DNA of 64,000 bases from Thermoanaerobaculia bacterium. Its GTDB lineage: Bacteria > Acidobacteriota > Thermoanaerobaculia > UBA5066 > Gp7-AA6. A program made the translations under genes and the position numbers. Under the pieces are notes generated by a model. The model was not told the origin of the DNA and searched no databases. It saw nothing but the letters and a program-made list of their open reading frames with translations. Each line of letters starts with the position of its first letter. The first letter of the stretch is position 1. Below, one piece after another: positions 1,592 to 36,698 of this stretch. The stretch is taken from NCBI GenBank assembly GCA_038239305.1, contig JBBSEW010000007.1:21434-85433 (forward strand), in the 5' to 3' direction.

Positions 1592-2350
1592 TCACTTCGG
1601 CATGAAGACTTTCAGCATCTCGATCGGGAGCGGAAATACGATCGTGGTGTTTTTCTCGCTTCCGATCTCCGTCAGGGTCTGCAGGTAGCGAAGCTGCAGC
1701 GTCGCCGGATGCCGTCCCACGACTTCCGCCGCCAGCGAGAGTTGCGACGCCGCCTGGAACTCCCCTTCCGCATGGATGATCTTGGCCCTCTTCTCGCGCT
1801 CGGCTTCGGCCTGACGCGCCATCGCCCTCTGCATCTCGGGCGGAAGGTCCACCTGCTTCACCTCGACCAGGGACACCTTGATGCCCCAGGGCTGCGTATG
1901 CTGATCGATCACGCTCTGGAGCGCCAGGTTCAGCTTCTCCCGCTCCGACAGAAGCTCATCGAGCATCGCCTCGCCGAGAACGCTGCGCAGCGTCGTCTGA
2001 GCGAGCTGCGACGTGGCATAGAGATAGTTCTCCACCTGCACGACCGCCTTATCCGGCTCGATGACCCGGAAATAAACCACGGCGTTCACCTTCACCGACA
2101 CGTTGTCCCGCGTGATGATGTCCTGCGGCGGGACGTCGTGGACGATCGTGCGCAGCGAGATTCGCACCATCGTCTCGAACGGCCAGAAGATGAAGACGAG
2201 CCCGGGGCCCTTCGGCTTCGGACCGAGGCGGCCCAGCCAGAACGTGACCGCTCGCTCGTATTCCTTGAGCACGTTGACCCACTTGAAGAAGAGAACCACC
2301 GCGACGAAGAGCGCCACGATCAGTCCGGGACCCGAGATAAAAGCCGCCAT
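1592..2350 (-). CDS. SPFH/band-7 (stomatin-like) protein
   Basis: 252-aa ORF with an N-terminal TM helix, an SPFH core ([36 protein letters not shown]) and a coiled coil ([18 protein letters not shown]). It directly abuts the NfeD gene. Confidence 0.9.
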
Positions 2351-3688
2351 TCAAGACCTCCGTTCGACCTGAAGGATGAATCCGTCCACTCGCGCGATAC
2401 GAGCCCGTTCCCCGCGGACGATTCCCGCGGGTCCCCGCGCGTTCCAGTACTCGCCGTGCACGAGGACCGTGCCGGCGCCGTCGTCTCCGAATGTTCTCAC
2501 CACCTGCGCGATCTCCCCGAGGAGGCCTTCGAAACCGGTACGAACGGGCAGCCGCCGCAGCCCGGCCGTTCTCCACGCGAGGAACGCGACGACGCCGAGC
2601 GTCACGGCCACGGCCGGAACCGTGATCGACAGGTCCACCCGGTAGTCCGCCGATCCGGCGCTCCCGGAAAAGAGGAGGGCCGATCCGGCCAGGAGGGATG
2701 CGGCACCTCCCGTGGCGAGGATTCCGTGGCTGCCGACCTTCACCTCGGCGGCGAAGAGGGCGAGCGCGAACACGATCATCGCAATCCCGGCGAGCCGGAC
2801 CGGAAGGACCGAGAACGCGTACAGGGCGAGGAGCAGCGCCACGCCTCCCACGACCCCCGGCAGAACCGCTCCCGGGCTCGCGACCTCGAAATACAGCCCC
2901 AAGAGGCCGACGAGAAACAGGAGGTAGGCGACGTTCGGATGCGTGACGACTCCGAGCGTTCTCTCGACCACGCCCATTTCCCGGACGTCGATCCGGGCAC
3001 CCGCGATGTGAAGTATCTCGCTCGCGCCGCCGACGCGCGTGACGGTGCGCCCGTCGAGCTGCCGCAGGAGATCGGGGACGTCGCGCGCGACGACGTCGAT
3101 GAGGCCGCCGTCCTTCGCCTCTCCTTCCGTGAAGGAAGCACTCGCGGAGACCGCGGTCTCCGCTTTTTCGGCGTTGCGGGAGCGTTGCCGCGCGAGAGTC
3201 CGAATGAAGGCGCGCGCGTCCTGCTCGGCCTTCTCTCCCACGGTCTTGCCGAGATCGTGCCCCTCGCTTCCGACGGGGTGAGCCGCGCCCGTGTTCGTGC
3301 CGGGAGCCATCGCGTCGACGTCGCCGGCGAGGAGGAGAAAGAACCCCGCGGACGCCGCCGATGCCCCCGAAGGCGCGACGAAGGTGACCACGGGAACGGG
3401 GGACGTCAGGATCGCGGTCGCCATTTCGCGGGTCGACGAAAGCAGGCCGCCGGGGGTCGAGAGCTCGAGGACGACGAGCCGGGCGCCGCTCGCGGAGGCT
3501 TCCTTCAGCAGGCGCGTCAGGTACGCGGCCGAAGCGGGCTGGATCGGGGTGTCAATCCGCCCCCGGACGACGATCGGGACGGTGTCGGAACGCGAAGGAG
3601 GCGCGCCGGCTCCGGAGCCGGACCCTGCGGCGAGCGCGGCCGCGGTCATGAGCCCGAAAACGAGGCGGCGTGAAGTCATCGTCATCAA
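2351..3688 (-). CDS. NfeD-family membrane-bound ClpP-class serine protease
   Basis: 445-aa ORF with a signal peptide, a ClpP-like domain (VVLELSTPGGLLSSTREM), a multi-TM middle section and a C-terminal NfeD OB-fold (VLVHGEYWNARG...ARVDGFILQVE). This is the classic nfeD-stomatin gene pair. Confidence 0.88.
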   Translation of the reverse strand: MMTMTSRRLVFGLMTAAALAAGSGSGAGAPPSRSDTVPIVVRGRIDTPIQPASAAYLTRLLKEASASGARLVVLELSTPGGLLSSTREMATAILTSPVPVVTFVAPSGASAASAGFFLLLAGDVDAMAPGTNTGAAHPVGSEGHDLGKTVGEKAEQDARAFIRTLARQRSRNAEKAETAVSASASFTEGEAKDGGLIDVVARDVPDLLRQLDGRTVTRVGGASEILHIAGARIDVREMGVVERTLGVVTHPNVAYLLFLVGLLGLYFEVASPGAVLPGVVGGVALLLALYAFSVLPVRLAGIAMIVFALALFAAEVKVGSHGILATGGAASLLAGSALLFSGSAGSADYRVDLSITVPAVAVTLGVVAFLAWRTAGLRRLPVRTGFEGLLGEIAQVVRTFGDDGAGTVLVHGEYWNARGPAGIVRGERARIARVDGFILQVERRS

Positions 3689-3793: not shown

Positions 3794-4786
3794 GTGCGCA
3801 CGCGGCCGTCGCCCTCCCCGTCGGTCCTGCGTCCGGTCGAGGGACTGAACGGGCTCGCCCTCGCTGTCGTCTCGCTGCTCGCGCTCATCCTTCGCGGACG
3901 CCTGGCCGACCCGGGAGGAGTCCTCCTCCGGTACGCCGTCATGACGGCAGCCCTGCTCGTCCTCGCGTTTCTCGCCCGCCGGGAGGACCGGATTCCGGGG
4001 CCGCTCCGCTTTCTGATCGACTTTTACCCCGCCGCTTTCATCCCTCTCCTCTTCGAGACCCTCGGGCCTCTCATCGCCGCCGCCAGAGGAGGACCGCGGG
4101 ACGAGATCCTGATCGCGGCAGACCGCGCGCTCCTCGGCGTCGATGCCACCGTATGGCTTCAGCGCTTCGTCCGCCCGGCACTCACCAACTTCTTCTACCT
4201 CTCCTACACGTCCTATTACTTCCTGGCCCTGTCCCTGGGTTTCGCGCTCTGGTTCCGTTCGAAGGCGGACCTGCGCCGGTTCATCTACACGATCACGTTC
4301 TGCTTCTTCGTCTCCTACGCCGGATACTTTCTGGTGCCGGCGCTCGGGCCGCGCGTCTCGCTCGCGAACCGGCACTCGGTCATCCTCGAGACGACGGCGC
4401 TCTCCGCGACGATCGAGCGAACGTTAAACGAGCTCGAGCACACCAAGTTCGACGTTTTCCCGTCGGGGCACACCATGATCGCGACGGCGGTCCTGCTCGT
4501 CGCGTTCCGCCGGTCGCGGGACGTCTTCTGGTCGCTTCTCCCGGTTTCGATCGGCCTGATTCTCGCCACGGTTTACTGCCGTTACCACTACGTCGTCGAC
4601 GTCCTCGCGGGACTCATCCTCGCCTTCGCTGCGGTTCCTCTCGGGGATGCGATTTACGACCGGCTCATGAGAAGTTCCGCGCGGGACGCACCGGTCTCGG
4701 GAGGCCGATCTCCGGATACCGGATCCGCCGTCGTCTCGATGTCTGGAAGCGTCCGGGACGGACGTCCCGGCGGAAAGGGAGACTAG
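3794..4786 (+). CDS. PAP2-superfamily polytopic membrane protein (PAP2_3 / phosphosphingolipid-synthase-like)
   Basis: 330-aa ORF with a GTG start and multiple TM helices. It has C2/C3-type motifs FDVFPSGHTMIATA and YCRYHYVVDVLAG, but I could not see a clear KxxxxxxRP C1 motif. It is convergent with the GNAT/spt operon. Confidence 0.72.
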   Translation: MRTRPSPSPSVLRPVEGLNGLALAVVSLLALILRGRLADPGGVLLRYAVMTAALLVLAFLARREDRIPGPLRFLIDFYPAAFIPLLFETLGPLIAAARGGPRDEILIAADRALLGVDATVWLQRFVRPALTNFFYLSYTSYYFLALSLGFALWFRSKADLRRFIYTITFCFFVSYAGYFLVPALGPRVSLANRHSVILETTALSATIERTLNELEHTKFDVFPSGHTMIATAVLLVAFRRSRDVFWSLLPVSIGLILATVYCRYHYVVDVLAGLILAFAAVPLGDAIYDRLMRSSARDAPVSGGRSPDTGSAVVSMSGSVRDGRPGGKGD

Positions 4787-5970
4787 CGGACGCCGGCGGC
4801 CGACGCGGGCTCGATCGGGCGGTCGTACATCCGGTAGGTTTTGTACAGGCGCCCGCCCCACAGGTCGGCGGCGCGGATGACCGCCTCGTTGTCCTCGAGC
4901 AGCCACGACATCTCGCAGCCCGTGATGCCCCGGGAGAGCGCCGCCCGGAGCCCCTTCTCGAACATGACCGACTGAATTCCTCTCTGGCGCCAGGAGAGCT
5001 TGATCCCGAGGGTGAGCACGCGGATCGCGCGGATCTTCCGGATGTTGAGCAGAAATTTGAGCCAGCCGAACGGCAGCAGAAAACCGCGAAGCGGTTTCAT
5101 TGCCACGTTGTAGTCGGGGAGAGTGAGCATGAAAGCGACCGGTTCGAGACTGCCGTCCGGCCGGCGGGCCTCCGCGACGAACAGGAAATCCTTGTCGACC
5201 AGCGGCTTCAGCCGCTTCGCCATGAACTCCATCTCGTCGGACGTCATGGGCACGAATCCCCAGTTCTTCTCCCACGCCTCGTTGTAGACCTCCCGGATCT
5301 TCGGCAGATCGGCGGCCAGGCTCTTCTTCGAGATGTTGCGGATGACGACGTCCGTTTCCCGGGTCGCCACGCGCCGGGCGAGCTTCGTCAGCCGGGCGAG
5401 CGGGTCTTCCTTGATCTCGAACCAGTAGGCGAGCAGGTCTTTCGCCTTGCGAAAACCCGCCCCCTCGACGAGGCCGACGTAGTAGCGCGGGTTGTAGGTC
5501 ATCATCAGAACGGGCGACGAGTCGAAGCCCTCGACGAGCAGGCCGGCCTCGTCGTTCAGGGTCGGATTGGCGGGCCCCCGAAGGACCGTCATGCCTCTTT
5601 CGCGCGCCCAGCCGGCGGCCGCGTCGAAAAGCGCGCCGGCAACCGCCGGATCGTTCTCGCTCTCGAAGTAGCCGAAGAACGCGGTCTTTTCCCCGTGGAA
5701 AGAATTGTGATTGTCATCGACGATCGCCGCGATCCGGCCCGCGTCGCGGTCGCCGCGGCGTGCGACGAAGAGCTGCATGGAGCCATGCGCAAAGAACGGA
5801 TTTTTGTCCGAAAACACCTTGGAGACGTCATCGCGGAGAGGCGCGACCCAGAGCGGATCCGATCGGTAGATCGCGTCCGCCACGTCGAAGAAGCGCCGCA
5901 GCTCCTTGCGGGAGCGGCCGAGCGGGACGACGGTAGCGGCGACGGCGGCGGGAACCGGGTTACCGGCCAT
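4783..5970 (-). CDS. large GNAT-fold acyltransferase-like protein; candidate bacterial ceramide synthase (bCerS-like)
   Basis: 395-aa ORF with normal amino-acid composition. The C-terminal half (IREVYNEAWEKNWGFVPMT...VLTLGIKLSWRQRGIQSVMFEKGL) looks like an acyl-CoA N-acyltransferase fold. It lies 70 bp downstream of the spt-like gene on the same strand. The functional call is an inference from context. Confidence 0.6.
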   Translation of the reverse strand: MAGNPVPAAVAATVVPLGRSRKELRRFFDVADAIYRSDPLWVAPLRDDVSKVFSDKNPFFAHGSMQLFVARRGDRDAGRIAAIVDDNHNSFHGEKTAFFGYFESENDPAVAGALFDAAAGWARERGMTVLRGPANPTLNDEAGLLVEGFDSSPVLMMTYNPRYYVGLVEGAGFRKAKDLLAYWFEIKEDPLARLTKLARRVATRETDVVIRNISKKSLAADLPKIREVYNEAWEKNWGFVPMTSDEMEFMAKRLKPLVDKDFLFVAEARRPDGSLEPVAFMLTLPDYNVAMKPLRGFLLPFGWLKFLLNIRKIRAIRVLTLGIKLSWRQRGIQSVMFEKGLRAALSRGITGCEMSWLLEDNEAVIRAADLWGGRLYKTYRMYDRPIEPASAAGVR

Positions 5971-6039
5971 GAGACCTGGGATCGTGGGCGAAGGGACTCA
6001 TGAGACTGGCAGCATCGAGCCGAGAAGGAATCGCTTCCT

Positions 6040-7272
6040 TCAAACCTCCACCGGGCGGATCAGACCGACCTCGCGGCCGACCTCCTCTATGGCCTCGAGA
6101 GCGCGCGTGAGCTGCTCCCGGGTGTGCGTCGCCATGAGGGACGTCCGGATCAGGGCGCGGCCCGGCGGAGTCGCGGGCGAGAGAACGCAGTTTACGAACA
6201 CGCCCTCTTCGTGGAGCCGCTGCACCATCTTCAGAGCGGTGAAGTCCTCGCCGACAACGACAGGGACGACGGGCGTCGAGGATTCCCCCGTGTCGAGGCC
6301 GAGCGAGCGGAGCCCCTCCGAGAAGAAGCGCGTGTTCTCCCAGAGGCGATCGCGCCGCTCGGGCTCGTTCTCCATGATCTCGATGGTCGCGAGCGCCGCC
6401 GCGACCGACGCCGGCGGAGGCGCAGCGGAAAAGATGAGGGTGCGGGCCCGATGCTTGATGTAGTCGATGACGGTCGCCTCGCCCGCGATGAACCCGCCGA
6501 CGGACGCCATGGATTTCGAGAAGGTCCCCATGATGAGGTCCACTTCCTCCTCGAGCCCGAAGTGCTCGGAGGTACCCCGACCCGTCGGACCGAGGACGCC
6601 GATCCCGTGGGCGTCATCGACCATCACGGCCGCGTCGTGCTCCCGGGCGGCGGCGACGATCTCCGGAAGTGGAGCGATGTCGCCTTCCATGGAAAAGACG
6701 CCGTCCACGACCACGAGACGACCGCGCACGTCGACGTCGTTCCGCATCTGACGCCGGAGATCCGCGGCATCGTTGTGGCGGAACTTACGCACGTCGCCGA
6801 AGGACAGGCGGGCGCCGTCGATGATGCAGGCATGGTCCTGCTTGTCGAGATAGACGGTGTCGCCCTTGCCGACCAGGCAGGAAATGGCGCCCAGGTTGAC
6901 CTGAAATCCCGTCGCGAAGACGACGGCCGCGTCCTGCCGCATGAAACGGGCGAGGCGCTCCTCAAGGATGACGTGAAGGTCGAGGGTGCCGTTCAAGAAC
7001 CGGCTGCCGGCGCAGCCCGAGCCGTACTTGCGGATCGCGTCGATTGCCGCTTCTTTCACCCGGGCGTCGTTCGTGAGGCCCAGGTAGTTGTTCGATCCCA
7101 GCATGATCATCCGGCGGCCGCCGATGACGACTTCGGGATCCTGCGCGGAGTCGACGACGCGAAAAAACGAGTACAGGCCCGCTTTCTGGATGTTGCGGGC
7201 AACGTCGTATCGAAAACACTTGTCGAAGAGAGGCGAAGTCCGGGTCGCGGCGACCGGAGCGACTTTGCTCAT
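6040..7272 (-). CDS. spt: alpha-oxoamine synthase family PLP enzyme, serine palmitoyltransferase-like
   Basis: 410-aa ORF. Motifs include LGSNNYLGLTNDARVKEAAIDAIRKYGSGCAGSRFLNGT, DDAHGIGVLG and a PLP-lysine motif GTFSKSMASVGGF. That lysine motif matches the GTFSKS form I recall for bacterial Spt, not GTLGKA of Kbl or TFGKG of BioF. Confidence 0.78.
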   Translation of the reverse strand: MSKVAPVAATRTSPLFDKCFRYDVARNIQKAGLYSFFRVVDSAQDPEVVIGGRRMIMLGSNNYLGLTNDARVKEAAIDAIRKYGSGCAGSRFLNGTLDLHVILEERLARFMRQDAAVVFATGFQVNLGAISCLVGKGDTVYLDKQDHACIIDGARLSFGDVRKFRHNDAADLRRQMRNDVDVRGRLVVVDGVFSMEGDIAPLPEIVAAAREHDAAVMVDDAHGIGVLGPTGRGTSEHFGLEEEVDLIMGTFSKSMASVGGFIAGEATVIDYIKHRARTLIFSAAPPPASVAAALATIEIMENEPERRDRLWENTRFFSEGLRSLGLDTGESSTPVVPVVVGEDFTALKMVQRLHEEGVFVNCVLSPATPPGRALIRTSLMATHTREQLTRALEAIEEVGREVGLIRPVEV

Positions 7273-7342
7273 TTTTTTCTCCCACCTCGTGGACGACCGC
7301 CCCGCGGGGCGCCCGCGAAACCCAGGGGGATCTTAGCAAATT

Positions 7343-8326
7343 TTACAAAATCAACCAGCCCTCCCGCCGGTACCAGTCCCAGGTGGCCTGGAACCCCTCC
7401 GAGACGCCCGGGGCAGGCCCCAGATCCAGGTCCCGCGAGAGCGGCTCGCCGTCGGCGATCCAGTCGCCCGCGAGGATCTCCCGCGCCTTGTCGGCGTTGA
7501 AGGGGCGGGAGCGGCGCGTCACCATTTCCACGACCGACTCTCCCCACCCCGCCGCACGGACCAGCGGCCGGGGAACCGGGAGGAGAAAGGGGCGGCGCGG
7601 CGGCAGGCGGGCGATTTCCTCGGAGAGGCGGCGGATCGACAGGTGGGCCGGATCGCTGAGGAAGGCGCGACGACCTGCCAGATCGCGGCGACCGGAGGCG
7701 CGAGCGATCGCGGCGGCGGCGCGCTCCGCCCGGATCACCTGGACGAGCGACGCGCCAGACGGCACGGGAAGGACTCCGCGCGCGGCCGCTCGAAACAGAA
7801 GGAGAAGCCCGCGATCGCCGGGGCCATAAACGACGGCGGGTCGAATCACAACCCAGGGGCCGGGCCAGCCGCGAACGACCGCCGCTTCGCCCTCCTTCTT
7901 CGACTGGCCATACCAGGAGACAGGGCGGGCATCATCCGCTTCCCGAACGGGCCGTCCTTCTCTCGCCGGCCCGGCCGCCGCCTGGCTCGAGACGAGAACG
8001 AAGAGGGCTTCGGGCGCCGATGCCGCGGCGGCGCGCACGAGGCGATCCGTTCCCCGGGCGTTTCCTTCGCGGTACTCGTCCAGGGTTCGCGCCTTGACGA
8101 CACCGGCCACGTGGACGATCGCGTCGGCTCCCCGCACGGCCGCGGCCAGGTCCGTCGCCGCCGACAGGTCTCCGGCAACGGCCTGGACTCCGAGAGCCGG
8201 GAGGTCCCCCAGCCGCTCCGCCCCGCCCCGGACGAGGGCCCGGACGGTCCAGCCGCCGGAGATCAGCGAGCGGGCGACGTGCGCTCCGAGGAATCCCGTC
8301 GCGCCGGTGAGCAGACAAAGAGGCAT
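7343..8326 (-). CDS. NAD(P)-dependent epimerase/dehydratase-family (extended SDR) protein; candidate ceramide reductase (CerR-like)
   Basis: This is the C-terminal 327 codons of the 966-aa track ORF. It starts at MPLCLLTGATGFLGAHVARSL (Rossmann GxxGxxG) and contains YGQSK (YxxxK). The upstream part of the track ORF is antisense to the M1 peptidase gene and was rejected. Confidence 0.82.
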   Translation of the reverse strand: MPLCLLTGATGFLGAHVARSLISGGWTVRALVRGGAERLGDLPALGVQAVAGDLSAATDLAAAVRGADAIVHVAGVVKARTLDEYREGNARGTDRLVRAAAASAPEALFVLVSSQAAAGPAREGRPVREADDARPVSWYGQSKKEGEAAVVRGWPGPWVVIRPAVVYGPGDRGLLLLFRAAARGVLPVPSGASLVQVIRAERAAAAIARASGRRDLAGRRAFLSDPAHLSIRRLSEEIARLPPRRPFLLPVPRPLVRAAGWGESVVEMVTRRSRPFNADKAREILAGDWIADGEPLSRDLDLGPAPGVSEGFQATWDWYRREGWLIL

Positions 8327-8371
8327 CGGAGTTGGATTCTCTCCGGTTTCCGGATAACGTGCCGCCCCACA

Positions 8372-10534
8372 ATGACAACTCGTCGCACCGCCCCGATGCT
8401 CCGCGCCGGGGGCGCCGCCCTGTTTCTGGCCTCGCTCCTGCCCGGTAATGCCTTCGCCGCCGCGCCGATCCGTCCTCCCGTCGTCGAATACCGGATCGAG
8501 GCCTCGCTCGACCCGAAGACGCATGTCGTCGAGGGAAAGGAGCGGCTTCTCTGGCGCAATCCCTCCGGGGACAGCGTCGGGGAGCTTCGGTTTCACCTCT
8601 ATCTGAACGCCTTCAAGAACGACCTTTCCACGTTCATGCGGGAATCGGGCGGCCAGCTGCGGGGCGACAAGGCGAGCACCGAGGCGGGCGACTGGGGATC
8701 GATCGACGTCACGTCGATGAAGACTTCCGGCGGGGCCGATCTCCTGCCCCGGGCCCGGAAGATTCAGCCGGATGGCAACGCCGCCACGGACGAGACCGTC
8801 CTGCTCGTGCCGCTTTCGACGCCCGTCCCTCCGCACGGCGAGATCACCCTGGACATCGCGTTTCGCTCGAAGCTGCCGAAAATCTTCGCCCGCACCGGTT
8901 TCATCCGCGACTACCACCTGGTCGGCCAGTGGTTCCCCAAGATCGGCGTCTACGAAACCGCGGGGATGCGCGGCCGGACGACCGGCGGGTGGAACTGTCA
9001 CGCCTTCCACGCCAACTCGGAGTTCTATGCCGATTACGGCGACTGGGACGTGACTCTGTCCGTTCCCACGGGCTTCGTCGTCGGTGCGACGGGCCAGCGC
9101 GTCTCGGAGGAGAAGCGCGGAGACCGGACCGTCTCCCGCTACCGCCAGGAGAACGTGCACGATTTCGCCTGGACAGCCGATCCGCGTTTCGTCGTCCGCG
9201 AGTACACGTTCGATCCCGCGAAGGACGTCCCGGCGGGCTGGTCGGCGCGCGCTGCCGGGGAGCTCGGAATGACCGAGCAGCAGATCGCCCTGAAACCGAT
9301 CGCCGTGCGCATCCTCCTCCAGCCCGATCACGTGGGGGCGCTCGATCGGTACAAGAGCGGTCTCCACGCGGGCATCGCGTACTACGGCCTGTGGTTCGGC
9401 GCGTATCCGTACGCGACCCTGACACTCGTCGATCCCCCGGAGGACGGGATGGGCTCGGGGGGCATGGAGTATCCGACGTTCATCACGGGAGGATCGGACG
9501 TGCGGCTCCTCCACTGGCCTCTCGCGAATACGTACCTGACGGAGAACGTGACGCTCCACGAGTACGGCCACCAGTACTGGTACGGGCTGGTCGGCTCGAA
9601 CGAGTTCGAGGAATCCTGGCTCGACGAGGGGCTCAATACGGACTCCGAGTATCGCGCGATGCGGCTCGCGTACGGCGCGCGGGACATGGCGCAGTTTCCG
9701 GGGGGCGTGGGCCTCTCCTACCTTTCGATCGCCCACGGCGCCTACGCGGCGATCCCGAACCTCGACCCCATCCGCCGTTTCGCCTGGGGATACGCCACGA
9801 ACGACTCCTACGGCGAGAACTCCTACATGAAGGTCGGGCTTTTTCTCGCACAACTGTCGCAGGACATTGGAATAGGAAAGTTCGCGAAGGCCCAGCGCGC
9901 CTACTACGACCAGTGGTCCTTCCGGCATCCCTCGACGGAAGACTTCTTCGCTGCTTTCGAGCGATCGACGGGCCTCGATCTTTCCGACTACCGCCGCAAC
10001 ATCGTCGAGGGCACCGCGCGGCTCGACTGGGAAGTCGTTTCGGCGCGGGGGTCTCGCGACCGGGGAGAGTCCGGCGTGTTCGACCGGCCGGGGGGACGGG
10101 TGACGCTTGATCGCGGGAAGCCCGTGGACACCGCGGCCGGAAAAAAGACCGCGTCGGGCCTCGACCGGGACAAGGATGAAGACAAAGCGCACCGCCGCTA
10201 CAGGTCTGTCGTGCTGTTCGCCAATATCGGGGACTGGCCGCACGGTGCGCCCGCGCGGCTGGCCTTCGAGGACGGCACGACGATCGAGCGCGCCCTGCCC
10301 GCCTCCGCGCGGTGGGTGCGCCTGCGTATCTGGTCGCGATCTCCCCTCGCCTGGGCCGCCGTCGATCCGGACCGGACGAATACGTGGGACGTGAATCGTC
10401 TGAACGATTCGAAGGTGCTCCAGGGGGGTCGCGGCGCCGCCGACACCCGGAGCCGCCTCGCCCCGGTGAAATATCTCGGATGGGTCGCTACCGTGGGCGG
10501 TCTCCTGACCGAGATCCTGTGGGTGCTTTCGTGA
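8372..10534 (+). CDS. secreted M1-family zinc metallopeptidase (aminopeptidase N-like)
   Basis: ATG at 8372 followed by a signal peptide (MTTRRTAPMLRAGGAALFLASLLPGNAFAA). It has HEYGHQYWYG followed by WLDEGLN, giving HExxH-x18-E. Confidence 0.88.
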   Translation: MTTRRTAPMLRAGGAALFLASLLPGNAFAAAPIRPPVVEYRIEASLDPKTHVVEGKERLLWRNPSGDSVGELRFHLYLNAFKNDLSTFMRESGGQLRGDKASTEAGDWGSIDVTSMKTSGGADLLPRARKIQPDGNAATDETVLLVPLSTPVPPHGEITLDIAFRSKLPKIFARTGFIRDYHLVGQWFPKIGVYETAGMRGRTTGGWNCHAFHANSEFYADYGDWDVTLSVPTGFVVGATGQRVSEEKRGDRTVSRYRQENVHDFAWTADPRFVVREYTFDPAKDVPAGWSARAAGELGMTEQQIALKPIAVRILLQPDHVGALDRYKSGLHAGIAYYGLWFGAYPYATLTLVDPPEDGMGSGGMEYPTFITGGSDVRLLHWPLANTYLTENVTLHEYGHQYWYGLVGSNEFEESWLDEGLNTDSEYRAMRLAYGARDMAQFPGGVGLSYLSIAHGAYAAIPNLDPIRRFAWGYATNDSYGENSYMKVGLFLAQLSQDIGIGKFAKAQRAYYDQWSFRHPSTEDFFAAFERSTGLDLSDYRRNIVEGTARLDWEVVSARGSRDRGESGVFDRPGGRVTLDRGKPVDTAAGKKTASGLDRDKDEDKAHRRYRSVVLFANIGDWPHGAPARLAFEDGTTIERALPASARWVRLRIWSRSPLAWAAVDPDRTNTWDVNRLNDSKVLQGGRGAADTRSRLAPVKYLGWVATVGGLLTEILWVLS

Positions 10535-11689: not shown

Positions 11690-12016
11690 ATGGCCTCGAC
11701 GAGCCTGCTCCAGGGAACACTCGACCTCTTGATCTTGAAGACTCTGACGCTCGAGGAGATGCACGGGCTCGGCATCGCCCGTCGCATCGAGCAGATCACC
11801 TCGGGCACGTTCGACGTGAAGCCGGGCTCTCTCTTCCCTGCCCTGCACCGTATGGAGGAGGCCGGATGGCTCGCGTCGAAGTGGGGGGAGTCCGACGCGA
11901 ACCGCCGCGCGAAGTACTACCGCCTGACGCGCGCGGGCCGCTCTCAGCTGCGCACCGAGACAGACGAGTGGAGCCGCATCGCGCTCGCAATCGGCCGCGC
12001 CCTGCAGACGAGCTGA
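11690..12016 (+). CDS. PadR-family transcriptional regulator
   Basis: 108-aa ORF containing LLQGTLDLLILKTL...HGLGIARRIEQ...GSLFPALHRMEEAGWL...RRAKYYRLTRAG, a winged-helix PadR signature. It sits directly upstream of the ADOP permease. Confidence 0.92.
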   Translation: MASTSLLQGTLDLLILKTLTLEEMHGLGIARRIEQITSGTFDVKPGSLFPALHRMEEAGWLASKWGESDANRRAKYYRLTRAGRSQLRTETDEWSRIALAIGRALQTS

Positions 12017-12026
12017 GGACTGTGCC

Positions 12027-14678
12027 ATGCGCATACCCGCCCGCCTCCGAGCGCTCGCCCGCAATCTCGTCCGCCGGCCGGGGGTCGAGTCGGATCTCGA
12101 CGACGAGCTCCGGTCGTTTCTCGAAATGCGGATCGCGGAAAACATCGCGGCGGGAGCCACCCCCGAGGACGCCCGACGATCCGCGCAGCGGGAAATGGGC
12201 GGGCTCGAGCAGCTGAAGGAGTCGGTGCGCGAGGTCCGCACGGGAGCGGCGCTCGATACTCTCGCGCGCGATCTCACCTCGGGCGTGCGCCTCCTCGTCC
12301 GTAATCCCGGATTCACCGCGGCGGCCGTGATCGCGCTGGCGCTCGGGATCGGCGCGAGCGCCGCCATCTTCACCGTCGTCAACGCGGTGCTGCTGCGCCC
12401 GCTCTCCTACGGTCATCCGGACGGTCTCGCCGTGCTGCTCCACCGCGGGCGCAACCCGGTGAGCCCCGCGAACTACATCGACTGGAGACGCGCCAACGAC
12501 GTGTTCGAGAGAATGGGGGCGGCCGAGTCCTGGGCGCCCAATCTCGCCGACCGGGGCAGCGCCGAGAGCGTGACCGCCGTGCGCGTCGATACGCGCCTGC
12601 TCGACTTCCTCGAAGTGCCTCCCCTCATGGGCCGGCTCTTTCTCGAGGGCGAAGACGCGGAGGGGCGCGATCACGAGGTCGTGCTCGGCTATCGGATCTG
12701 GCAGCGCCGATTCGGCGGAGACCGGCGCGTTCTCGGCCAGGCCATCCGGCTGAACGGTCAGCCCTACACCGTCGTCGGCGTGATGCCCCGCTCGTTCACG
12801 TTCCCTCCATTCTGGGAGGAGGGCGCGGAGCTATGGGCGCCTCTACCGCTCGAATCCCGCAAGGACAGCCGGACGGGGAACAGCCTCCGCATATTTGCTC
12901 GCCTGAAGCCCGGCGTCTCGCTGGCGAGAGCCTCATCGCAAATGGCGGCGATCACGGCGCGGCTCGAACGCGAGTATCCCGGCACCAACCGGGAGGTCAC
13001 CGTCCGCTCGCTGCAGGACACCGTCGTCCGCGGGGTACGGCCCGCTCTGCTCGTCCTGCTCGGCGCCGTCGGGTTCGTGCTCGTCATCGCCTGCGCGAAT
13101 GTCGCTCACATGCTCCTCGCGCGCGCCTCGGCGCGGCAGAAAGAGATCGCCATCCGCACCGCCCTCGGTGCGAGCCGCGGACGCGTGATCCGCCAGCTCT
13201 TGACCGAGAGCATCGTACTGTCTTCCCTGGGAGGCGCTGGAGGGCTGCTTCTCGCTTTCGCCGGCGTCCGGGCGCTCGTGGCCCTCTCTCCGGAAATACC
13301 GAGGCTCGAGTCAATATCGGTCGACGGCCCGGTGCTCCTCTTCACGCTCGCCGTGTCGATGGCCACGGGGATCGCTTTCGGGCTCGTTCCCGCGCTGCAG
13401 GTTTCGCGGCGGGAGCTCACCGAAGCTCTGCGAGAGGGAGAGCGAGGCTCGACCGAGAGCGGCGGCCGCAGCCGCCTTCGGAATCTCCTCGTCGGATCCG
13501 AGCTGTCCCTGGCGCTCATCCTGACAATCGGCGCGGGGCTGATGATCCGCACGTTCATCGCCCTGTCGGCGATCGACCCGGGGCTCGATCCGCGCAACGT
13601 GCTGACGATGCAGGTGTCCGTGGCCGGAACGTCGCAGACCGCCCCGGGCCGCCGTGCCGGCTTCTATCCGGCGGTGCTCGAAAAGGTGAGCGCGATACCC
13701 GGAGTTGTGAGCGCCTCGGCGATCAATCACCTGCCGCTCGGCGGCGACATCTGGGGCTTTCCGTTTCAGATCGAAGGACGGCCGCAGCCGAAGGCGGGCG
13801 AGAGCCAGGGAGCCACGTTCCGGGCAGCGTTTCCCGGCTACTTCCGCACGATGAGAATCTCTCTCCTCCGCGGCCGGGAGTTCACAGCCGCCGACCGGAC
13901 CGGGGCGCCCGAGGTGGTGATCATCAATCGGCGCCTCGCCGAACAGTACTGGCCCGGCGAAGATGCGATCGGGAAGCGACTGACGGTGGACGGTGCGGGA
14001 GACGAGCCCCTCTGGCGAACCGTTGTCGGAATCGCCCAGAACGCGGTTCGCGCGGACTGGACGGCGGACGCGGAGGAAGAAGTGTACGTCCCGTTCCTCC
14101 AGAGCCCGCTGTATATGGAAGGCCCGATCTGGCCGGTGCAATACGCGACCCTGGTCGTCCGAACCCACGGCGATCCCTCCCGCCTGGCGGGTCCGATCCG
14201 GGCCGCCGTCGCCTCGCTCGATCGCAACGTCGCGGTGTCGTCCGTTTCCACGATGGAGAACGTCGTCTCGCGCTCGAACTCCCGGCCCCGCTTCTATCTG
14301 CTGCTTCTCGGCTCGTTCGCCGCCGTCGCTCTCGCTCTCGCGGCGCTCGGAATCTACGGCGTCATGAGCTACTCGGTTTCGCGCCGGTCGCACGAGATCG
14401 GCATCCGCATGGCGCTCGGAGCCGAGCGCGGGGATCTCGTGCGGCTCGTCGTCGGCGAAGGAATGCGAGTCGCCGCCGCCGGCGCGGCCGTGGGCCTGGC
14501 GGGCGCATTCGCGCTCACCCGGCTGATGGCGGGCCTTCTCTACGGAGTCCGCGCTACCGACCCCGTGACATTCACCCTCGTTGCCGTACTTCTCTCGATC
14601 GTGGCGCTCGCCGCGAGCTGGATTCCCGCCCGCCGGGCGACACGGGTAGACCCGCTGACAGCGCTGCGCCACGACTGA
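12027..14678 (+). CDS. ADOP-family duplicated FtsX/MacB-type permease
   Basis: 883-aa ORF with the characteristic N-terminus (LRALARNLVRRPGVESDLDDELRSFLEMRIAENIAAG...PEDARRSAQREMGG). It carries two MacB-periplasmic-domain plus FtsX modules, and no ATPase gene is adjacent. Confidence 0.92.
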   Translation: MRIPARLRALARNLVRRPGVESDLDDELRSFLEMRIAENIAAGATPEDARRSAQREMGGLEQLKESVREVRTGAALDTLARDLTSGVRLLVRNPGFTAAAVIALALGIGASAAIFTVVNAVLLRPLSYGHPDGLAVLLHRGRNPVSPANYIDWRRANDVFERMGAAESWAPNLADRGSAESVTAVRVDTRLLDFLEVPPLMGRLFLEGEDAEGRDHEVVLGYRIWQRRFGGDRRVLGQAIRLNGQPYTVVGVMPRSFTFPPFWEEGAELWAPLPLESRKDSRTGNSLRIFARLKPGVSLARASSQMAAITARLEREYPGTNREVTVRSLQDTVVRGVRPALLVLLGAVGFVLVIACANVAHMLLARASARQKEIAIRTALGASRGRVIRQLLTESIVLSSLGGAGGLLLAFAGVRALVALSPEIPRLESISVDGPVLLFTLAVSMATGIAFGLVPALQVSRRELTEALREGERGSTESGGRSRLRNLLVGSELSLALILTIGAGLMIRTFIALSAIDPGLDPRNVLTMQVSVAGTSQTAPGRRAGFYPAVLEKVSAIPGVVSASAINHLPLGGDIWGFPFQIEGRPQPKAGESQGATFRAAFPGYFRTMRISLLRGREFTAADRTGAPEVVIINRRLAEQYWPGEDAIGKRLTVDGAGDEPLWRTVVGIAQNAVRADWTADAEEEVYVPFLQSPLYMEGPIWPVQYATLVVRTHGDPSRLAGPIRAAVASLDRNVAVSSVSTMENVVSRSNSRPRFYLLLLGSFAAVALALAALGIYGVMSYSVSRRSHEIGIRMALGAERGDLVRLVVGEGMRVAAAGAAVGLAGAFALTRLMAGLLYGVRATDPVTFTLVAVLLSIVALAASWIPARRATRVDPLTALRHD

Positions 14679-20920: not shown

Positions 20921-22219
20921 ATGGACTGGGTAACCTGTCCCAAGTGCGGTTTCACGCAGATTCCCACGGAGAAGTGCCTTCGCTGCGGGCGGCCTTCGTC
21001 TCCGCCGGATCGCGAGACCGTGGCCGCTCCCACGACGCTTCCTCCTCGGGCGCCTGGTCCGGCGGGCGAGGCCGTTCGGACGGTCGCCGTCGACCGGCCC
21101 CCCGGATCGTCCCCCGGCGCGGCATCCCCTGTCCCGAAAGGCCCCCCTTCTCCTTCTTCTCCTGCTGCGGCGCCCGCCCTCTCGCCGCGCTCCGGCTCCA
21201 CGATCGATCCCGGGGACGCGTCCGCGGCTTCCTCCCCATCCGGGTCGCGATCCCCGGCTTTCCGCCCTGCTTCCAACCCCAACCCGCCACGGACGCCGCC
21301 GCCGGGAGCCCGGCCAACCCGCGGCCGCGGCCCCACCCTCGTCGCAATCGGCGGCCTCGCCGCTCTCCTGCTTGCCGTGGCGGTCGTCCTGACGCGCGCC
21401 CCGAGCAACTCCAGCGCCGGCCTGCCGGTCGTCACCCCCGCTCCGGACACCGGACCGGCCTCCCCCGTCCTCGACCTCTCGGGCCGGTGGGAGACGGAAT
21501 TTTCGAAGACGCTTCCGGGGCCGCCTCCCCGGCCTGCCCTGAAACAGGCGTACCTCGAGACGGACCGGGTGGGGAACATTCTCGCCGCGGGCGTTCTCCT
21601 GACCGATCCCGGAAGAGGAGGCGCCGGAGCCGGATATCGTCTGGCGACGGACGGACCGCAGCGGCTCGGCGAGGTGTCCTCGGCGCTCGCCGGCGCCCCC
21701 GCCGGAGCTTCCCTGCCGCAGGTGGACTTCATCCCGGTCCCTGCCTGGATGCCGCATCGCGACCGCGTCTGGCGCGCCCTCGAAGGCCAGAGCCGGCGCG
21801 TGCTCGACGTGCGCTACGTGTTGCTCGAATCCGTCGAGGACGACTACGTCGTCCAGGCGGGGCTCAACCGGAGCGGGTTTCTCTCCTATGCGTTCTTCTC
21901 GCGCGGGTACGCGCACGACCGTGGGCTCGACGCCCTCTCGTCCGTGATCCATCCGGACCCGGGCAGCTCGCTCGGCGGATTCAAGAATCTCGTCTGGGAC
22001 TTCTCGGGAGCCGCGGACTTCCTCAAGCTCGAGGTCTACGCGACACTCTCCGGCCCGGAAGGCACGACCGACCGGCTCACCCTGAAGAGAGCCGCGACGG
22101 ACGGGGCTCCGGGGGCGCCGGCCCCGCCGCGCGGTAATCGTCCTTCCGCGACGGTCAAGGCTCCCGGTTCACCTGCGGGCGCGGCCCACGCGGCTTCACC
22201 CGGCTCTACGCCGAAATGA
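20921..22219 (+). CDS. zinc-ribbon / Pro-rich linker / single-TM protein with C-terminal extracytoplasmic domain, unknown function
   Basis: 432-aa ORF with N-terminal CPKCG...CLRCG, a long P/S/A-rich linker and TM helix LVAIGGLAALLLAVAVVL. The C-terminal domain has normal composition (VLDVRYVLLESVEDDYVVQAG...). The overlapping antisense ORFs are Arg/Gly-rich junk. Confidence 0.65.
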   Translation: MDWVTCPKCGFTQIPTEKCLRCGRPSSPPDRETVAAPTTLPPRAPGPAGEAVRTVAVDRPPGSSPGAASPVPKGPPSPSSPAAAPALSPRSGSTIDPGDASAASSPSGSRSPAFRPASNPNPPRTPPPGARPTRGRGPTLVAIGGLAALLLAVAVVLTRAPSNSSAGLPVVTPAPDTGPASPVLDLSGRWETEFSKTLPGPPPRPALKQAYLETDRVGNILAAGVLLTDPGRGGAGAGYRLATDGPQRLGEVSSALAGAPAGASLPQVDFIPVPAWMPHRDRVWRALEGQSRRVLDVRYVLLESVEDDYVVQAGLNRSGFLSYAFFSRGYAHDRGLDALSSVIHPDPGSSLGGFKNLVWDFSGAADFLKLEVYATLSGPEGTTDRLTLKRAATDGAPGAPAPPRGNRPSATVKAPGSPAGAAHAASPGSTPK

Positions 22220-35757: not shown

Positions 35758-35798
35758 TCCCTTTGACCGCTTCCGGCCCGTATGTTACGGTCAAAACA

Positions 35799-36548: not shown

Positions 36549-36561
36549 GAAAAAGTCTTCC

Positions 36562-36698
36562 GTTCTCAGTTCTCAGTTCTCAGTTCTCAGCTCTCAGTTC
36601 TGATCCTTACGCCTCGCACTTTTCACCCAACCCGAGGAACGACGAGCGAAGCGGAAAACCGATAACCGAAAACTGACAACCGATGACTCACAACTGAC
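36562..36698. repeat. Short-tandem-repeat locus L6: (GTTCTCA)x6 and (GANAACY)x6-7 in the tolQ-tolR spacer
   Basis: GTTCTCA heptamers at 36562-36603. GAAAACC GATAACC GAAAACT GACAACC GATGACT CACAACT GAC(ATG) at 36654-36698, running into the tolR start codon. Confidence 0.95.

What the first reader, a model, noticed from the sequence alone, without database searches (positions are those of the whole stretch)
3794..8326. Candidate bacterial ceramide/sphingolipid cluster: SDR reductase - Spt - GNAT acyltransferase operon with a convergent PAP2 head-group-type enzyme
Three consecutive minus-strand genes, separated by 70-bp gaps, match the three-enzyme bacterial ceramide pathway defined genetically in Caulobacter. 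That pathway uses serine palmitoyltransferase, a GNAT-type ceramide synthase (bCerS) and an NAD-dependent epimerase/NDUFA9-like reductase (CerR). The first gene here is an extended-SDR epimerase/dehydratase-family protein (7343-8326). The second is an alpha-oxoamine synthase with the GTFSKS lysine motif typical of Spt (6040-7272). The third is a 395-aa GNAT-fold protein (4783-5970). The convergent neighbour (3794-4786) is a PAP2 membrane protein with PSGHT and HYVVDV motifs but no obvious C1 motif. That pattern is shared with sphingomyelin and inositol-phosphorylceramide synthase-type transferases, so it could add a phospho-head group. A stomatin/NfeD pair lies immediately adjacent (1592-3688), which is only suggestive of a membrane-microdomain context. 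As far as I know, sphingolipid synthesis is not a commonly described trait of Acidobacteriota-like bacteria.
Basis: partly seen in the sequence, partly recalled or inferred. Interest (0 to 1): 0.68.

Follow-up and report, generated by a model that had tools for sequence, protein, structure and literature searches.

The report
Acidobacterial ceramide gene cluster with head-group enzyme
An uncultured Acidobacteriota genome carries the known three-enzyme bacterial ceramide pathway next to a yeast-AUR1-like membrane enzyme that probably adds a phosphate head group: a solid annotation, but another example of a pathway already known to be widespread.

Summary

- **7343-8326(-):** an extended-SDR reductase of the CerR type.
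- **6040-7272(-):** a serine palmitoyltransferase. It is 52% identical to the Sphingobacterium multivorum Spt, without gaps over 386 residues. 15 of 17 active-site residues are identical, and it separates from Kbl/BioF.
- **4783-5970(-):** a tandem-GNAT protein of the YghO/bCerS family. It matches no Pfam or NCBIfam model, but aligns full-length with the N-acyltransferases encoded in the E. coli, Sphingomonas and Streptomyces sphingolipid clusters.
- **3794-4786(+):** a PAP2_3 membrane protein, convergent on the operon. A cross-phylum profile of it matches yeast AUR1 (inositol phosphorylceramide synthase) over the whole catalytic domain. AUR1 is also its best structural match, ahead of the PAP2 phosphatases and SMSr.

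Among 80 related loci, 56 carry the AOS, 51 the SDR and 32 the PAP2 beside the GNAT gene. These occur in at least four different gene orders across several phyla.

The most likely product is a ceramide, converted to a phosphosphingolipid whose head group is unknown.

This is not new in kind. The pathway has been predicted in up to 40 phyla, and ceramides were reported in the acidobacterium Solibacter usitatus in 2024. The stomatin/NfeD adjacency is synteny specific to this lineage.

The parts
7343..8326 (-). CerR-type extended-SDR reductase (327 aa). It would reduce the 3-keto group of 3-ketosphinganine or of oxidised ceramide.
   Evidence: It matches Pfam Epimerase and 3Beta_HSD. It is 38% identical to the Streptomyces cluster reductase, 30% to the Sphingomonas one and 28% to the E. 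coli one. Its NCBIfam hit profile is the same as theirs, with HpnA at about 90 bits and then OleD. It lies next to the AOS and GNAT genes in 51 of 80 related loci.
8285..8308 (-). Rossmann motif TGATGFLG of the SDR (residues 7-14). The catalytic YGQSK lies at 7898-7912.
6040..7272 (-). Serine palmitoyltransferase (Spt), 410 aa, of the Bacteroidota/Myxococcota type with no dedicated ACP
   Evidence: NF047600 SerpalmtaseCFB scores 547 bits against 404 for Kbl and 396 for BioF. The PDB best hit is S. multivorum Spt at 455 bits, with the next non-Spt at 337. It is 52% identical to that Spt, ungapped over 386 aa, and 15 of 17 active-site residues are identical. The split from Kbl/BioF is found in 84 of 100 NJ bootstraps.
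6511..6528 (-). GTFSKS motif carrying the PLP-binding lysine (K253). The Spt-type loop GSRFLNGT lies at 6985-7008.
4783..5970 (-). bCerS-type (YghO family) tandem-GNAT N-acyltransferase, 395 aa
   Evidence: tblastn and blastp give 35% identity to E. coli YghO, 34% to the Sphingomonas N-acetyltransferase and 39% to the Streptomyces GNAT, all full-length with E values from 1e-67 to 1e-82. Those genes lie in or beside spt clusters. The AF2 model has pLDDT 86, and its top Foldseek hits are tandem GNATs 2wpw, 7q3a and MshD.
3794..4786 (+). AUR1-like PAP2_3 integral membrane phosphotransferase (330 aa), the candidate ceramide phospho-head-group transferase
   Evidence: PF14378 scores 71 bits, and NF052609 (PI-DHC synthase) gives a weak hit. 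The Foldseek top two are AUR1 entries 9ivc and 9vj4 (TM 0.53-0.65), against 0.27-0.35 for PgpB-type phosphatases. The cross-phylum profile hits AUR1 at E 5.8e-10 over positions 2-216 of 225. It is linked to the GNAT gene in 32 of 80 loci, in four gene orders.
4457..4474 (+). FPSGHT (C2-type motif, catalytic His226)
   Evidence: It is invariant in cluster-linked homologues from several phyla. It aligns to AFPSLH of AUR1.
4580..4603 (+). RYHYVVDV (C3-type motif, His265 and Asp269)
   Evidence: H265, Y266 and D269 are invariant. The motif aligns to HHYFVDL of AUR1.
4337..4354 (+). PALGPR, a conserved motif in place of the phosphatase C1 motif
   Evidence: P182, G185 and P186 are invariant. The motif aligns to PAAPPW of AUR1. 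The protein contains no K-x6-RP.

Best explanation
This is a sphingolipid biosynthesis locus of an uncultured Acidobacteriota bacterium, whose closest relatives are labelled Thermoanaerobaculia.

- Step 1: the minus-strand operon first makes 3-ketosphinganine from L-serine and a long-chain acyl thioester, using Spt (6040-7272). No dedicated ACP or acyl-ACP synthetase is present, so the donor is probably acyl-CoA.
- Step 2: the tandem-GNAT bCerS-type enzyme (4783-5970) N-acylates the long-chain base.
- Step 3: the CerR-type SDR (7343-8326) reduces the 3-keto group, giving dihydroceramide. The order of acylation and reduction is debated even in Caulobacter and is not settled here.
- Step 4: the convergent AUR1-like PAP2_3 membrane enzyme (3794-4786) then most likely transfers a phospho-head group from a glycerophospholipid (PE, PG or PI) to the ceramide, releasing diacylglycerol. 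The product would be a ceramide phosphoethanolamine, phosphoglycerol or phosphoinositol.

What is shown is family membership, conserved catalytic residues, fold and cross-phylum gene linkage. What is inferred is the substrates, the reaction order, the head group and the membrane sidedness.
For: - Spt: NCBIfam, PDB and tree placement, plus Spt-type motifs and active site.
- GNAT: it is a full-length homologue of the N-acyltransferase gene of proteobacterial and actinobacterial sphingolipid clusters. The E. coli cluster is described as homologous to Caulobacter CC_1165-1162 plus CC_1154 in PMC9386255. Homologues also occur in Prevotella, Bacteroides, Myxococcus and Corallococcus, which are known sphingolipid producers.
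- SDR: it is homologous to the cluster reductases, with the Rossmann and YxxxK motifs.
- Linkage: of 80 related loci, 56 carry the AOS, 51 the SDR and 32 the PAP2 within 8 kb, and 27 carry all four. Bryobacterales have a co-directional SDR-PAP2-GNAT-AOS operon, and Gemmatimonadota have AOS-GNAT-SDR-PAP2.
- PAP2: it belongs to PF14378, keeps the His-His-Asp triad, and matches AUR1 by both profile and structure. The bacterial AUR1 homologue BT_1522 is a genetically proven PI-dihydroceramide synthase (PMC9246714).
- Prior report: ceramides have been reported in an acidobacterium of the Bryobacterales (taxonomy).
Against: - No enzyme activity or lipid data exist for this organism.
- The Spt score (547 bits) is below the NCBIfam equivalog cut-off of 640.
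- I could not compare directly with the Caulobacter bCerS and CerR sequences. The link runs through their E. coli and Sphingomonas homologues and the literature.
- SDR identities are modest (28-38%), and no CerR-specific model exists.
- 19 of 80 GNAT homologues have none of the partner genes within 8 kb, so the family may not be limited to ceramide synthesis, or its genes are often dispersed.
- The PAP2 scores only 27 bits against the PI-DHC synthase equivalog (cut-off 480).
- A profile built from this lineage alone did not reach AUR1.
- No inositol or other head-group supply gene was seen in the part of the 64-kb window that was scanned.
Confidence: 0.8

Rival explanations
1. The core operon makes ceramide, but the PAP2 neighbour is an ordinary lipid phosphate phosphatase. 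Candidates are an undecaprenyl-PP, PGP, lipid A 1-phosphate or ceramide-1-phosphate phosphatase. It would not be a head-group transferase.
For: The catalytic motifs are shared with PAP2 phosphatases. There are weak NCBIfam hits to LpxE and to undecaprenyl-diphosphatases. A single-lineage profile hits only PgpB and YodM. The gene is convergent on the operon, not co-transcribed with it.
Against: Phosphatases match only the C2-C3 segment, whereas AUR1 matches the whole domain. Structural TM scores are 0.53-0.65 to AUR1 against 0.27-0.35 to PgpB. The phosphatase C1 motif is absent. The gene lies inside co-directional sphingolipid operons in Bryobacterales and Gemmatimonadota.
Confidence: 0.22
2. 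The operon makes a sphingolipid-like lipid that does not derive from serine. Examples are a sulfonolipid (capnine type), a 1-deoxy- or glycine-derived base, or another N-acyl amino-ketone lipid.
For: AOS enzymes with related sequences use cysteate; CapB/SulA score 243-263 bits. The Black Sea study proposes that other amino acids can be Spt substrates. The Spt equivalog cut-off is not reached.
Against: The residues that contact L-serine and PLP in S. multivorum Spt are conserved, 15 of 17. The Spt score exceeds the cysteate acyltransferase score by about 190 bits. No cysteate synthase gene was seen in the window.
Confidence: 0.07
3. The AOS and SDR form a Kbl plus SDR-type threonine dehydrogenase pair for threonine degradation.
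For: Kbl belongs to the same superfamily and still scores 404 bits.
Against: That Kbl score is below its cut-off of 460 and far below the Spt score. The Spt-type motifs GSRFLNGT and GTFSKS differ from Kbl. The tree separates the AOS from Kbl/BioF in 84 of 100 bootstraps. The SDR gives no threonine dehydrogenase hit. The pair is always linked to the bCerS-type GNAT.
Confidence: 0.01
4. The stomatin/NfeD pair belongs functionally to the locus, organising sphingolipid-containing membrane microdomains.
For: NfeD and stomatin follow the PAP2 gene in 18-20 related loci. This includes distant members of the clade with GNAT identity of only 45% (L057, L058).
Against: All of these loci belong to one acidobacterial clade. 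The pair is missing next to the cluster in L001/L002 (71% GNAT identity) and in every other phylum. Stomatin-NfeD operons are common in bacteria that lack sphingolipids (general knowledge).
Confidence: 0.1

Closest known systems
Bacterial ceramide pathway Spt / bCerS (CerS, CC_1154) / CerR (CC_1164) of Caulobacter crescentus, and its E. coli B and Sphingomonas counterparts
   Same: The same three enzyme families are present: an alpha-oxoamine synthase of the Spt clade, a YghO-type tandem GNAT, and an extended-SDR reductase. As there, the genes are clustered.
   Different: There is no dedicated AcpR or AasR, and no LptF2/G2 genes beside the cluster. The Spt is of the Sphingobacterium/Myxococcus subgroup, not the Rhodobacteria subgroup. 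The gene order SDR-AOS-GNAT is different. Identities to the proteobacterial proteins are only 28-42%.
Sphingobacterium multivorum serine palmitoyltransferase (PDB 3A2B, 8GUH)
   Same: It is 52% identical without gaps over 386 residues. The PLP lysine, His138, Asp210, His213, Ser81, Asn52 and other active-site residues are conserved.
   Different: Tyr27 is replaced by Phe and Met271 by Ile. The organism belongs to a different phylum. The score is below the NCBIfam CFB equivalog cut-off.
AUR1 inositol phosphorylceramide synthase (yeast; PDB 9IVC, 9VJ3/9VJ4) and Bacteroides BT_1522 PI-dihydroceramide synthase
   Same: It belongs to the same Pfam family, PAP2_3. It shares the FPS-x-H and HY-x-VD motifs and a P-A-x-x-P motif in place of C1. 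It matches over the whole domain by profile and by fold. It is encoded next to ceramide genes.
   Different: Identity is about 18%. No Kei1-like partner is known. It scores only 27 bits against the BT_1522 equivalog model. No inositol-phosphate synthase or PI synthase was seen in the window, so the head group may be ethanolamine or glycerol phosphate rather than inositol phosphate.
Sphingomyelin synthase / SMSr family
   Same: It has a PAP2_C hit just above threshold (29.8 bits against a cut-off of 27), and its SGHT and HYxxDV motifs resemble D3 and D4 (motif knowledge from the literature).
   Different: The structural match to SMSr (8IJQ) is weak, with TM 0.30 and rank 6. No sequence hit to SMS chains appeared in the PDB.
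Bacteroides BT_0972 3-ketosphinganine reductase
   Same: It carries out the same chemical step, reduction of the 3-keto group.
   Different: BT_0972 is a classical SDR of about 31 kDa, related to Tsc10 and FVT1 (PMC9278070). The window protein is an extended SDR of the epimerase/dehydratase type, like CerR.

Membership tests
Serine palmitoyltransferase (bacterial Spt clade of alpha-oxoamine synthases) | PLP-binding lysine in a GTFSKS context, and the GSRxLNGT loop | tested here: met
   Both motifs are present. They are shared with all Spt references and differ in Kbl and BioF.
Serine palmitoyltransferase (bacterial Spt clade of alpha-oxoamine synthases) | Active-site residues that hold PLP and L-serine in S. 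multivorum Spt (PMC10196870) | tested here: met
   15 of 17 residues are identical. The other two changes are conservative, Y to F and M to I.
Serine palmitoyltransferase (bacterial Spt clade of alpha-oxoamine synthases) | Groups with characterised Spt rather than Kbl, BioF, HemA or CapB | tested here: met
   HMM scores are 547 (Spt CFB), 404 (Kbl) and 396 (BioF). PDB scores are 455 for Spt against 337 for the next non-Spt. The NJ bipartition is found in 84 of 100 bootstraps. The tree is small and its backbone is poorly resolved.
Serine palmitoyltransferase (bacterial Spt clade of alpha-oxoamine synthases) | Reaches the curated NCBIfam equivalog cut-off | tested here: not met
   NF047600 scores 547 bits against a cut-off of 640. 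The model was built for the CFB group, so the shortfall is expected for another phylum. The name therefore rests on the other tests.
Serine palmitoyltransferase (bacterial Spt clade of alpha-oxoamine synthases) | Condenses L-serine with a long-chain acyl thioester | not testable with these tools
   This needs an enzyme assay.
bCerS / YghO-type bacterial ceramide synthase | Full-length homology to the N-acyltransferase of characterised sphingolipid clusters | tested here: met
   Identity is 34-39% over more than 92% of the length to E. coli YghO, the Sphingomonas N-acetyltransferase and the Streptomyces GNAT. 57 columns are invariant. The E. coli gene order matches ECD_02850-02854 as described in PMC9386255.
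bCerS / YghO-type bacterial ceramide synthase | Direct similarity to Caulobacter CCNA_01212/CC_1154 | not tested
   The sequence could not be obtained. The Stankeviciute 2022 paper is not held, and the single genome scan returned no Caulobacter locus.
bCerS / YghO-type bacterial ceramide synthase | GNAT acyltransferase fold | tested here: met
   The AF2 model has pLDDT 86 and pTM 0.85. Its top Foldseek hits are tandem GNATs (2wpw at E 3e-16, 7q3a and MshD).
bCerS / YghO-type bacterial ceramide synthase | Genomic association with Spt and CerR | tested here: met
   56 of 80 loci carry the AOS and 51 of 80 the SDR within 8 kb.
CerR-type ceramide/3-ketosphinganine reductase (extended SDR) | Rossmann GxxGxxG and catalytic YxxxK | tested here: met
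   TGATGFLG (residues 7-14) and YGQSK (residues 139-143).
CerR-type ceramide/3-ketosphinganine reductase (extended SDR) | Orthology to the reductase of sphingolipid clusters rather than to other extended SDRs | tested here: inconclusive
   Identity to the cluster reductases is 28-38%. The NCBIfam hit profile is the same as theirs, and all share a C-terminal DK..EL...DW motif. However, no CerR model or outgroup phylogeny was available, and SDRs in general share this level of identity.
AUR1/IPC-synthase-type lipid phosphotransferase (Pfam PAP2_3) | PF14378 above its gathering score | tested here: met
   The score is 71.1 bits against a cut-off of 27. All 15 cluster-linked homologues also match.
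AUR1/IPC-synthase-type lipid phosphotransferase (Pfam PAP2_3) | Catalytic His (C2) plus His and Asp (C3), without the phosphatase C1 motif | tested here: met
   H226, H265 and D269 are invariant and there is no K-x6-RP. The residues align to the corresponding AUR1 motifs.
AUR1/IPC-synthase-type lipid phosphotransferase (Pfam PAP2_3) | Whole-domain similarity to AUR1 in sequence profile and in fold | tested here: met
   The profile gives E 5.8e-10 over positions 2-216 of 225. The Foldseek top two are AUR1 entries with TM 0.53-0.65.
AUR1/IPC-synthase-type lipid phosphotransferase (Pfam PAP2_3) | Orthology to the Bacteroides PI-dihydroceramide synthase (NF052609 cut-off) | tested here: not met
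   The score is 27 bits against a cut-off of 480. It is related to BT_1522 but is not an equivalog of it.
AUR1/IPC-synthase-type lipid phosphotransferase (Pfam PAP2_3) | Transfers a phospho-head group to ceramide; identity of the donor lipid | not testable with these tools
   This needs an assay or lipidomics.
Kbl / threonine dehydrogenase pair | The AOS reaches the Kbl equivalog score and the SDR matches an L-threonine 3-dehydrogenase | tested here: not met
   Kbl scores 404 bits against a cut-off of 460, far below the Spt score. No Tdh model appears among the 22 SDR hits.

The most novel reading that the evidence does not exclude
The AUR1-like PAP2_3 enzyme is genomically tied to bCerS in Acidobacteriota, Verrucomicrobiota, Gemmatimonadota, Myxococcota and other lineages. 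It could represent the so far unassigned bacterial ceramide phosphoethanolamine (or phosphoglycerol) synthase family, a bacterial counterpart of the eukaryotic IPC and SMS transferases that uses PE or PG as donor. In this acidobacterial clade its stable adjacency to stomatin/NfeD could also reflect sphingolipid-based membrane microdomains.
Probability: 0.3. Interest if true: 0.6.

Novelty: new member of a known kind. Interest (0 to 1): 0.36.

Why it matters
Acidobacteriota are among the most abundant soil and sediment bacteria. Their membrane lipids are used as environmental and palaeoclimate markers.

A complete and well-supported ceramide cluster in a Thermoanaerobaculia-like lineage adds a likely source of environmental sphingolipids. 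It extends the single culture-based report from Solibacter.

The more useful lead is the PAP2_3 gene. Its linkage to the ceramide genes recurs in several phyla and in several gene orders. That singles out a testable candidate for the enzyme that puts phospho-head groups on bacterial ceramides, a step assigned so far only for the inositol lipid of Bacteroides.

Tried and rejected
- Pfam and NCBIfam gave nothing for the 395-aa protein. PDB sequence search gave only an insignificant GNAT hit at E 0.065. The family was identified instead by tblastn against annotated plasmid and chromosome records.
- The founding paper (Stankeviciute 2022, PMC8891067) and Halamka 2024 are not held. Their content is used only as cited by other papers.
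- The 8-sequence cross-phylum GNAT alignment was too diverse for the genome scan, so I used a 7-sequence acidobacterial alignment. No Caulobacter locus was obtained. A second plasmid search with the Sphingomonas protein also found none.
- A PAP2 profile built from this lineage alone did not detect AUR1. A profile of cluster-linked homologues from several phyla did.
- The promoter and terminator scan gave no more sites than shuffled sequence, so it was uninformative.
- The threonine-degradation reading is rejected (see the rivals).
- No MIPS, PI synthase, ceramide kinase, ACP or acyl-ACP synthetase gene turned up among the 30 other candidate ORFs that I scanned against Pfam; 11 candidate ORFs were not scanned.
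- The NJ tree backbone within the Spt clade is unresolved, with bootstraps of 1-12. I therefore make no claim about which Spt subgroup is the sister of the acidobacterial one beyond the similarity scores.

Full report
**1. What is in the sequence**

- An extended-SDR protein lies at 7343-8326(-). The mechanical ORF continues upstream to 10243, antisense to a peptidase gene, but the ATG at 8326 directly precedes the Rossmann motif.
- An alpha-oxoamine synthase lies at 6040-7272(-).
- A 395-aa protein lies at 4783-5970(-).
- A convergent PAP2 membrane protein lies at 3794-4786(+). Its 3' end overlaps that of the 395-aa gene by 4 bp.
- The minus-strand genes are separated by 70 and 69 bp.
- GC content (0.64-0.69) does not differ from the surroundings.
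- Stomatin (1592-2350) and NfeD (2351-3688) follow. A family-M1 peptidase (8372-10534, +) is the divergent neighbour.

**2. The oxoamine synthase is an Spt**

- Among NCBIfam models the best is the Bacteroidota-type serine palmitoyltransferase, at 547 bits. Glycine C-acetyltransferase scores 404 and BioF 396. The curated equivalog cut-off of 640 is not reached.
- Against all PDB chains the best match is Sphingobacterium multivorum Spt at 455 bits. The next non-Spt protein is the Thermus BioF/Kbl at 337, Kbl enzymes score about 270, and cysteate acyltransferases 243-263.
- The alignment to S. multivorum Spt has no gap over 386 residues and is 52% identical.
- Of the 17 active-site residues described for that enzyme (PMC10196870), 15 are identical. 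The other two are conservative changes.
- The loop GSRFLNGT and the lysine motif GTFSKS are shared with every Spt reference and every cluster-linked homologue. They differ in E. coli Kbl, E. coli BioF and the Thermus enzyme.
- In a small neighbour-joining tree, the split between {BioF, Kbl, Thermus BioF/Kbl} and all Spt-like sequences appears in 84 of 100 bootstraps. Relationships inside the Spt clade are unresolved.
- No ACP or acyl-ACP synthetase gene accompanies the gene. With the similarity scores, this places it with the Sphingobacterium/Myxococcus subgroup rather than the AcpR-dependent subgroup of alpha-, beta- and gamma-proteobacteria (PMC9386255).

**3. The 395-aa protein is a bCerS-type tandem GNAT**

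- It matches no Pfam or NCBIfam model, yet it belongs to a very large and well conserved family. More than 7,500 clusters scored E <= 0.001, and the best are labelled Acidobacteriota or Thermoanaerobaculia.
- tblastn against annotated records showed 34-41% identity over about 93% of its length to E. coli YghO, a Sphingomonas parapaucimobilis 'N-acetyltransferase', a Streptomyces 'GNAT family N-acetyltransferase' and others.
- In E. coli, yghO lies next to a fatty acyl-AMP ligase, an epimerase-family protein, an ACP and an aminotransferase class I/II protein. This order matches the cluster ECD_02850-02854 that PMC9386255 describes as the counterpart of Caulobacter aasR, cerR, acpR and spt plus the N-acyltransferase CC_1154 (PMC11324152).
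- In Sphingomonas the homologue lies a few genes from NAD(P)H-binding protein, ACP and Spt.
- In Streptomyces the order is AOS-GNAT-epimerase.
- Pairwise blastp confirms that all three window proteins match their counterparts in these clusters. GNAT identities are 34-39%, AOS 39-46% and SDR 28-38%.
- The full-length alignment has 57 invariant columns.
- An AlphaFold model (pLDDT 86, pTM 0.85) has two GNAT domains. Its best PDB matches are tandem-GNAT proteins: 2wpw at E 3e-16, MAB_4324 (7q3a) and mycothiol synthase.
- I could not compare directly with the Caulobacter protein, because its sequence was not obtainable.

**4. The SDR**

- It has the Rossmann motif and YGQSK.
- Its ranking of NCBIfam hits is HpnA at about 90 bits, then OleD. 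The E. coli, Sphingomonas and Streptomyces cluster reductases give the same ranking.
- It shares with them a C-terminal DK..EL...DW motif.
- No threonine dehydrogenase model is hit.
- This is consistent with a CerR-type reductase. Without a CerR model or an outgroup phylogeny, orthology is supported mainly by gene linkage.

**5. Gene linkage across phyla**

- One scan of a collection holding one genome per species, run with an acidobacterial GNAT alignment, found 585 confirmed relatives. The best 80 loci include Acidobacteriota (Thermoanaerobaculia, Holophagae, Bryobacterales, Aminicenantes), Verrucomicrobiota, Myxococcota (Corallococcus, Myxococcus), Gemmatimonadota, Elusimicrobia, Chloroflexi and others.
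- Within 8 kb of the GNAT gene, 56 loci carry a homologue of the window's AOS, 51 the SDR and 32 the PAP2. 27 carry all four.
- The window's arrangement, with the divergent M1 peptidase, recurs in about 20 acidobacterial contigs.

**6. The PAP2 protein is AUR1-like**

- Pfam assigns it to PAP2_3 (71 bits), with weaker PAP2 and PAP2_C hits.
- NCBIfam gives a weak match (27 bits, 154 residues) to the Bacteroides phosphoinositol-dihydroceramide synthase model.
- The homologous PAP2 gene sits beside the ceramide genes in four different arrangements:
  - convergent on the GNAT gene, in this clade;
  - SDR-PAP2-GNAT-AOS, co-directional, in Bryobacterales (L077, L079);
  - AOS-GNAT-SDR-PAP2, in Gemmatimonadota (L044) and in L061;
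  - AOS-SDR-PAP2 convergent on the GNAT gene, in Verrucomicrobiota (L026, L032).
- Across these lineages D103, Y138, P182, G185, P186, F222-P223-S224, H226, T259, H265, Y266 and D269 are invariant. All 15 proteins match PAP2_3.
- The protein contains no K-x6-RP (C1) motif.
- The AlphaFold model (pLDDT 86) finds as its two best PDB matches the yeast inositol phosphorylceramide synthase AUR1: 9ivc and the ceramide complex 9vj4, with TM 0.53-0.65 over 250-290 columns. PgpB-type phosphatases reach 0.27-0.35 and SMSr 0.30.
- A sequence profile of the 15 cluster-linked proteins hits AUR1 at E 5.8e-10 over positions 2-216 of 225. In that alignment PavGPr pairs with PAAPPW, FPSgH with FPSLH, and HYavDv with HYFVDL. 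Phosphatases match only the last third of the profile.
- A profile from this lineage alone had missed AUR1.
- The bacterial AUR1 homologue BT_1522 is genetically established as the PI-dihydroceramide synthase of Bacteroides. Its deletion leaves the ethanolamine-phosphate ceramide intact, so that second transferase is still unassigned there (PMC9246714).

**7. Mechanism**

- The best-supported reading is: Spt makes 3-ketosphinganine; the GNAT enzyme N-acylates; the SDR reduces. The order of the last two steps is disputed even for Caulobacter (PMC11087976; PMC11324152).
- The AUR1-like enzyme then transfers a phospho-head group from a glycerophospholipid to the ceramide.
- Which head group is transferred cannot be read from the sequence. 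No inositol-supply gene turned up among the ORFs of the window that I scanned against Pfam.
- The window also encodes LpxD, BamA and Tol-Pal components. The organism is therefore a diderm that probably makes lipid A as well.

**8. Stomatin and NfeD**

The pair follows the PAP2 gene in 18-20 of the 80 loci, all from the same acidobacterial clade. It is absent at that position in L001/L002 and in all other phyla. I read this as inherited gene order, not as evidence of a functional link.

**9. Novelty**

- The three-gene bacterial ceramide pathway is known.
- Homologues were reported in 9 phyla, and then in 38 phyla of Black Sea metagenome-assembled genomes, for a total of 40 (PMC11334938).
[quoted passage not shown] It is cited in PMC12619533 (taxonomy), but the paper itself was not available.
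- The locus is therefore a new member of a known kind, in a class (Thermoanaerobaculia-like) for which I found no specific report.
- The part with some discovery value is the recurrent linkage of an AUR1-like PAP2_3 gene to bCerS outside Bacteroidota.

Noticed in passing
window 1592-3688 (and L006-L023, L038, L057, L058): The stomatin (Band_7) and NfeD genes lie directly after the PAP2 gene in 18-20 related acidobacterial loci, including distant ones (GNAT identity 45%). They do not in L001/L002 or in other phyla. This is probably clade-specific synteny.
   Followed up: partly
window 7343-10243 (-) versus 8372-10534 (+): The mechanical minus-strand ORF that contains the SDR runs on for a further 1.9 kb, antisense to the M1 peptidase gene. 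This is a typical spurious long ORF of a genome with about 68% GC. The divergent starts of the SDR (8326) and the peptidase (8372) are only 45 bp apart.
   Followed up: partly
L003 (E. coli record NZ_MG591698.1), 4504-10101: E. coli yghO, an uncharacterised gene name, is the bCerS-type N-acyltransferase of an E. coli sphingolipid cluster (spt, ACP, epimerase, fatty acyl-AMP ligase) that sits next to extra lptF/lptG copies. NCBIfam has no model for this family.
   Followed up: partly
L024, L027-L031, L036, L039, L043 (Verrucomicrobiota MAGs, one labelled Akkermansia muciniphila): These loci carry GNAT (bCerS-type) homologues at about 50% identity with no AOS or SDR within 8 kb. In L033 and L034 the PAP2 gene still sits beside the GNAT gene without an AOS. 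Either the pathway genes are dispersed there or the pair has another role.
   Followed up: no
one search hits H5-H18 (Roseomonas plasmids): GNAT-family homologues on Roseomonas megaplasmids are annotated 'dATP pyrophosphohydrolase' and overlap an NTP-transferase annotation. This is probably a mis-annotation of the same family. I did not examine their context.
   Followed up: no
window 11690-14678: A PadR-family regulator is followed by an 883-aa MacB/FtsX-type permease with two FtsX modules, a pairing common in Acidobacteriota. A second FtsX/MacB_PCD protein lies at 58788-59972.
   Followed up: no
window 35763-40900 and 50799-55478: Outer-membrane housekeeping genes are present: TolQ/ExbB, TolR/ExbD, TolB, a YbgF-like TPR protein, LpxD and BamA. 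They show that the organism is a diderm, so any sphingolipid would coexist with lipid A rather than replace it.
   Followed up: partly
window 22206-23261 (-): This gene encodes a protein with an NYN ribonuclease-like domain and a weak OST-HTH/LOTUS domain. Its function is unknown.
   Followed up: no
L057 (Thermoanaerobaculia MAG): Here the SDR-AOS pair lies about 5.4 kb from the GNAT gene, while GNAT, PAP2, NfeD and stomatin stay together. The cluster can therefore be split without losing the GNAT-PAP2 adjacency.
   Followed up: no
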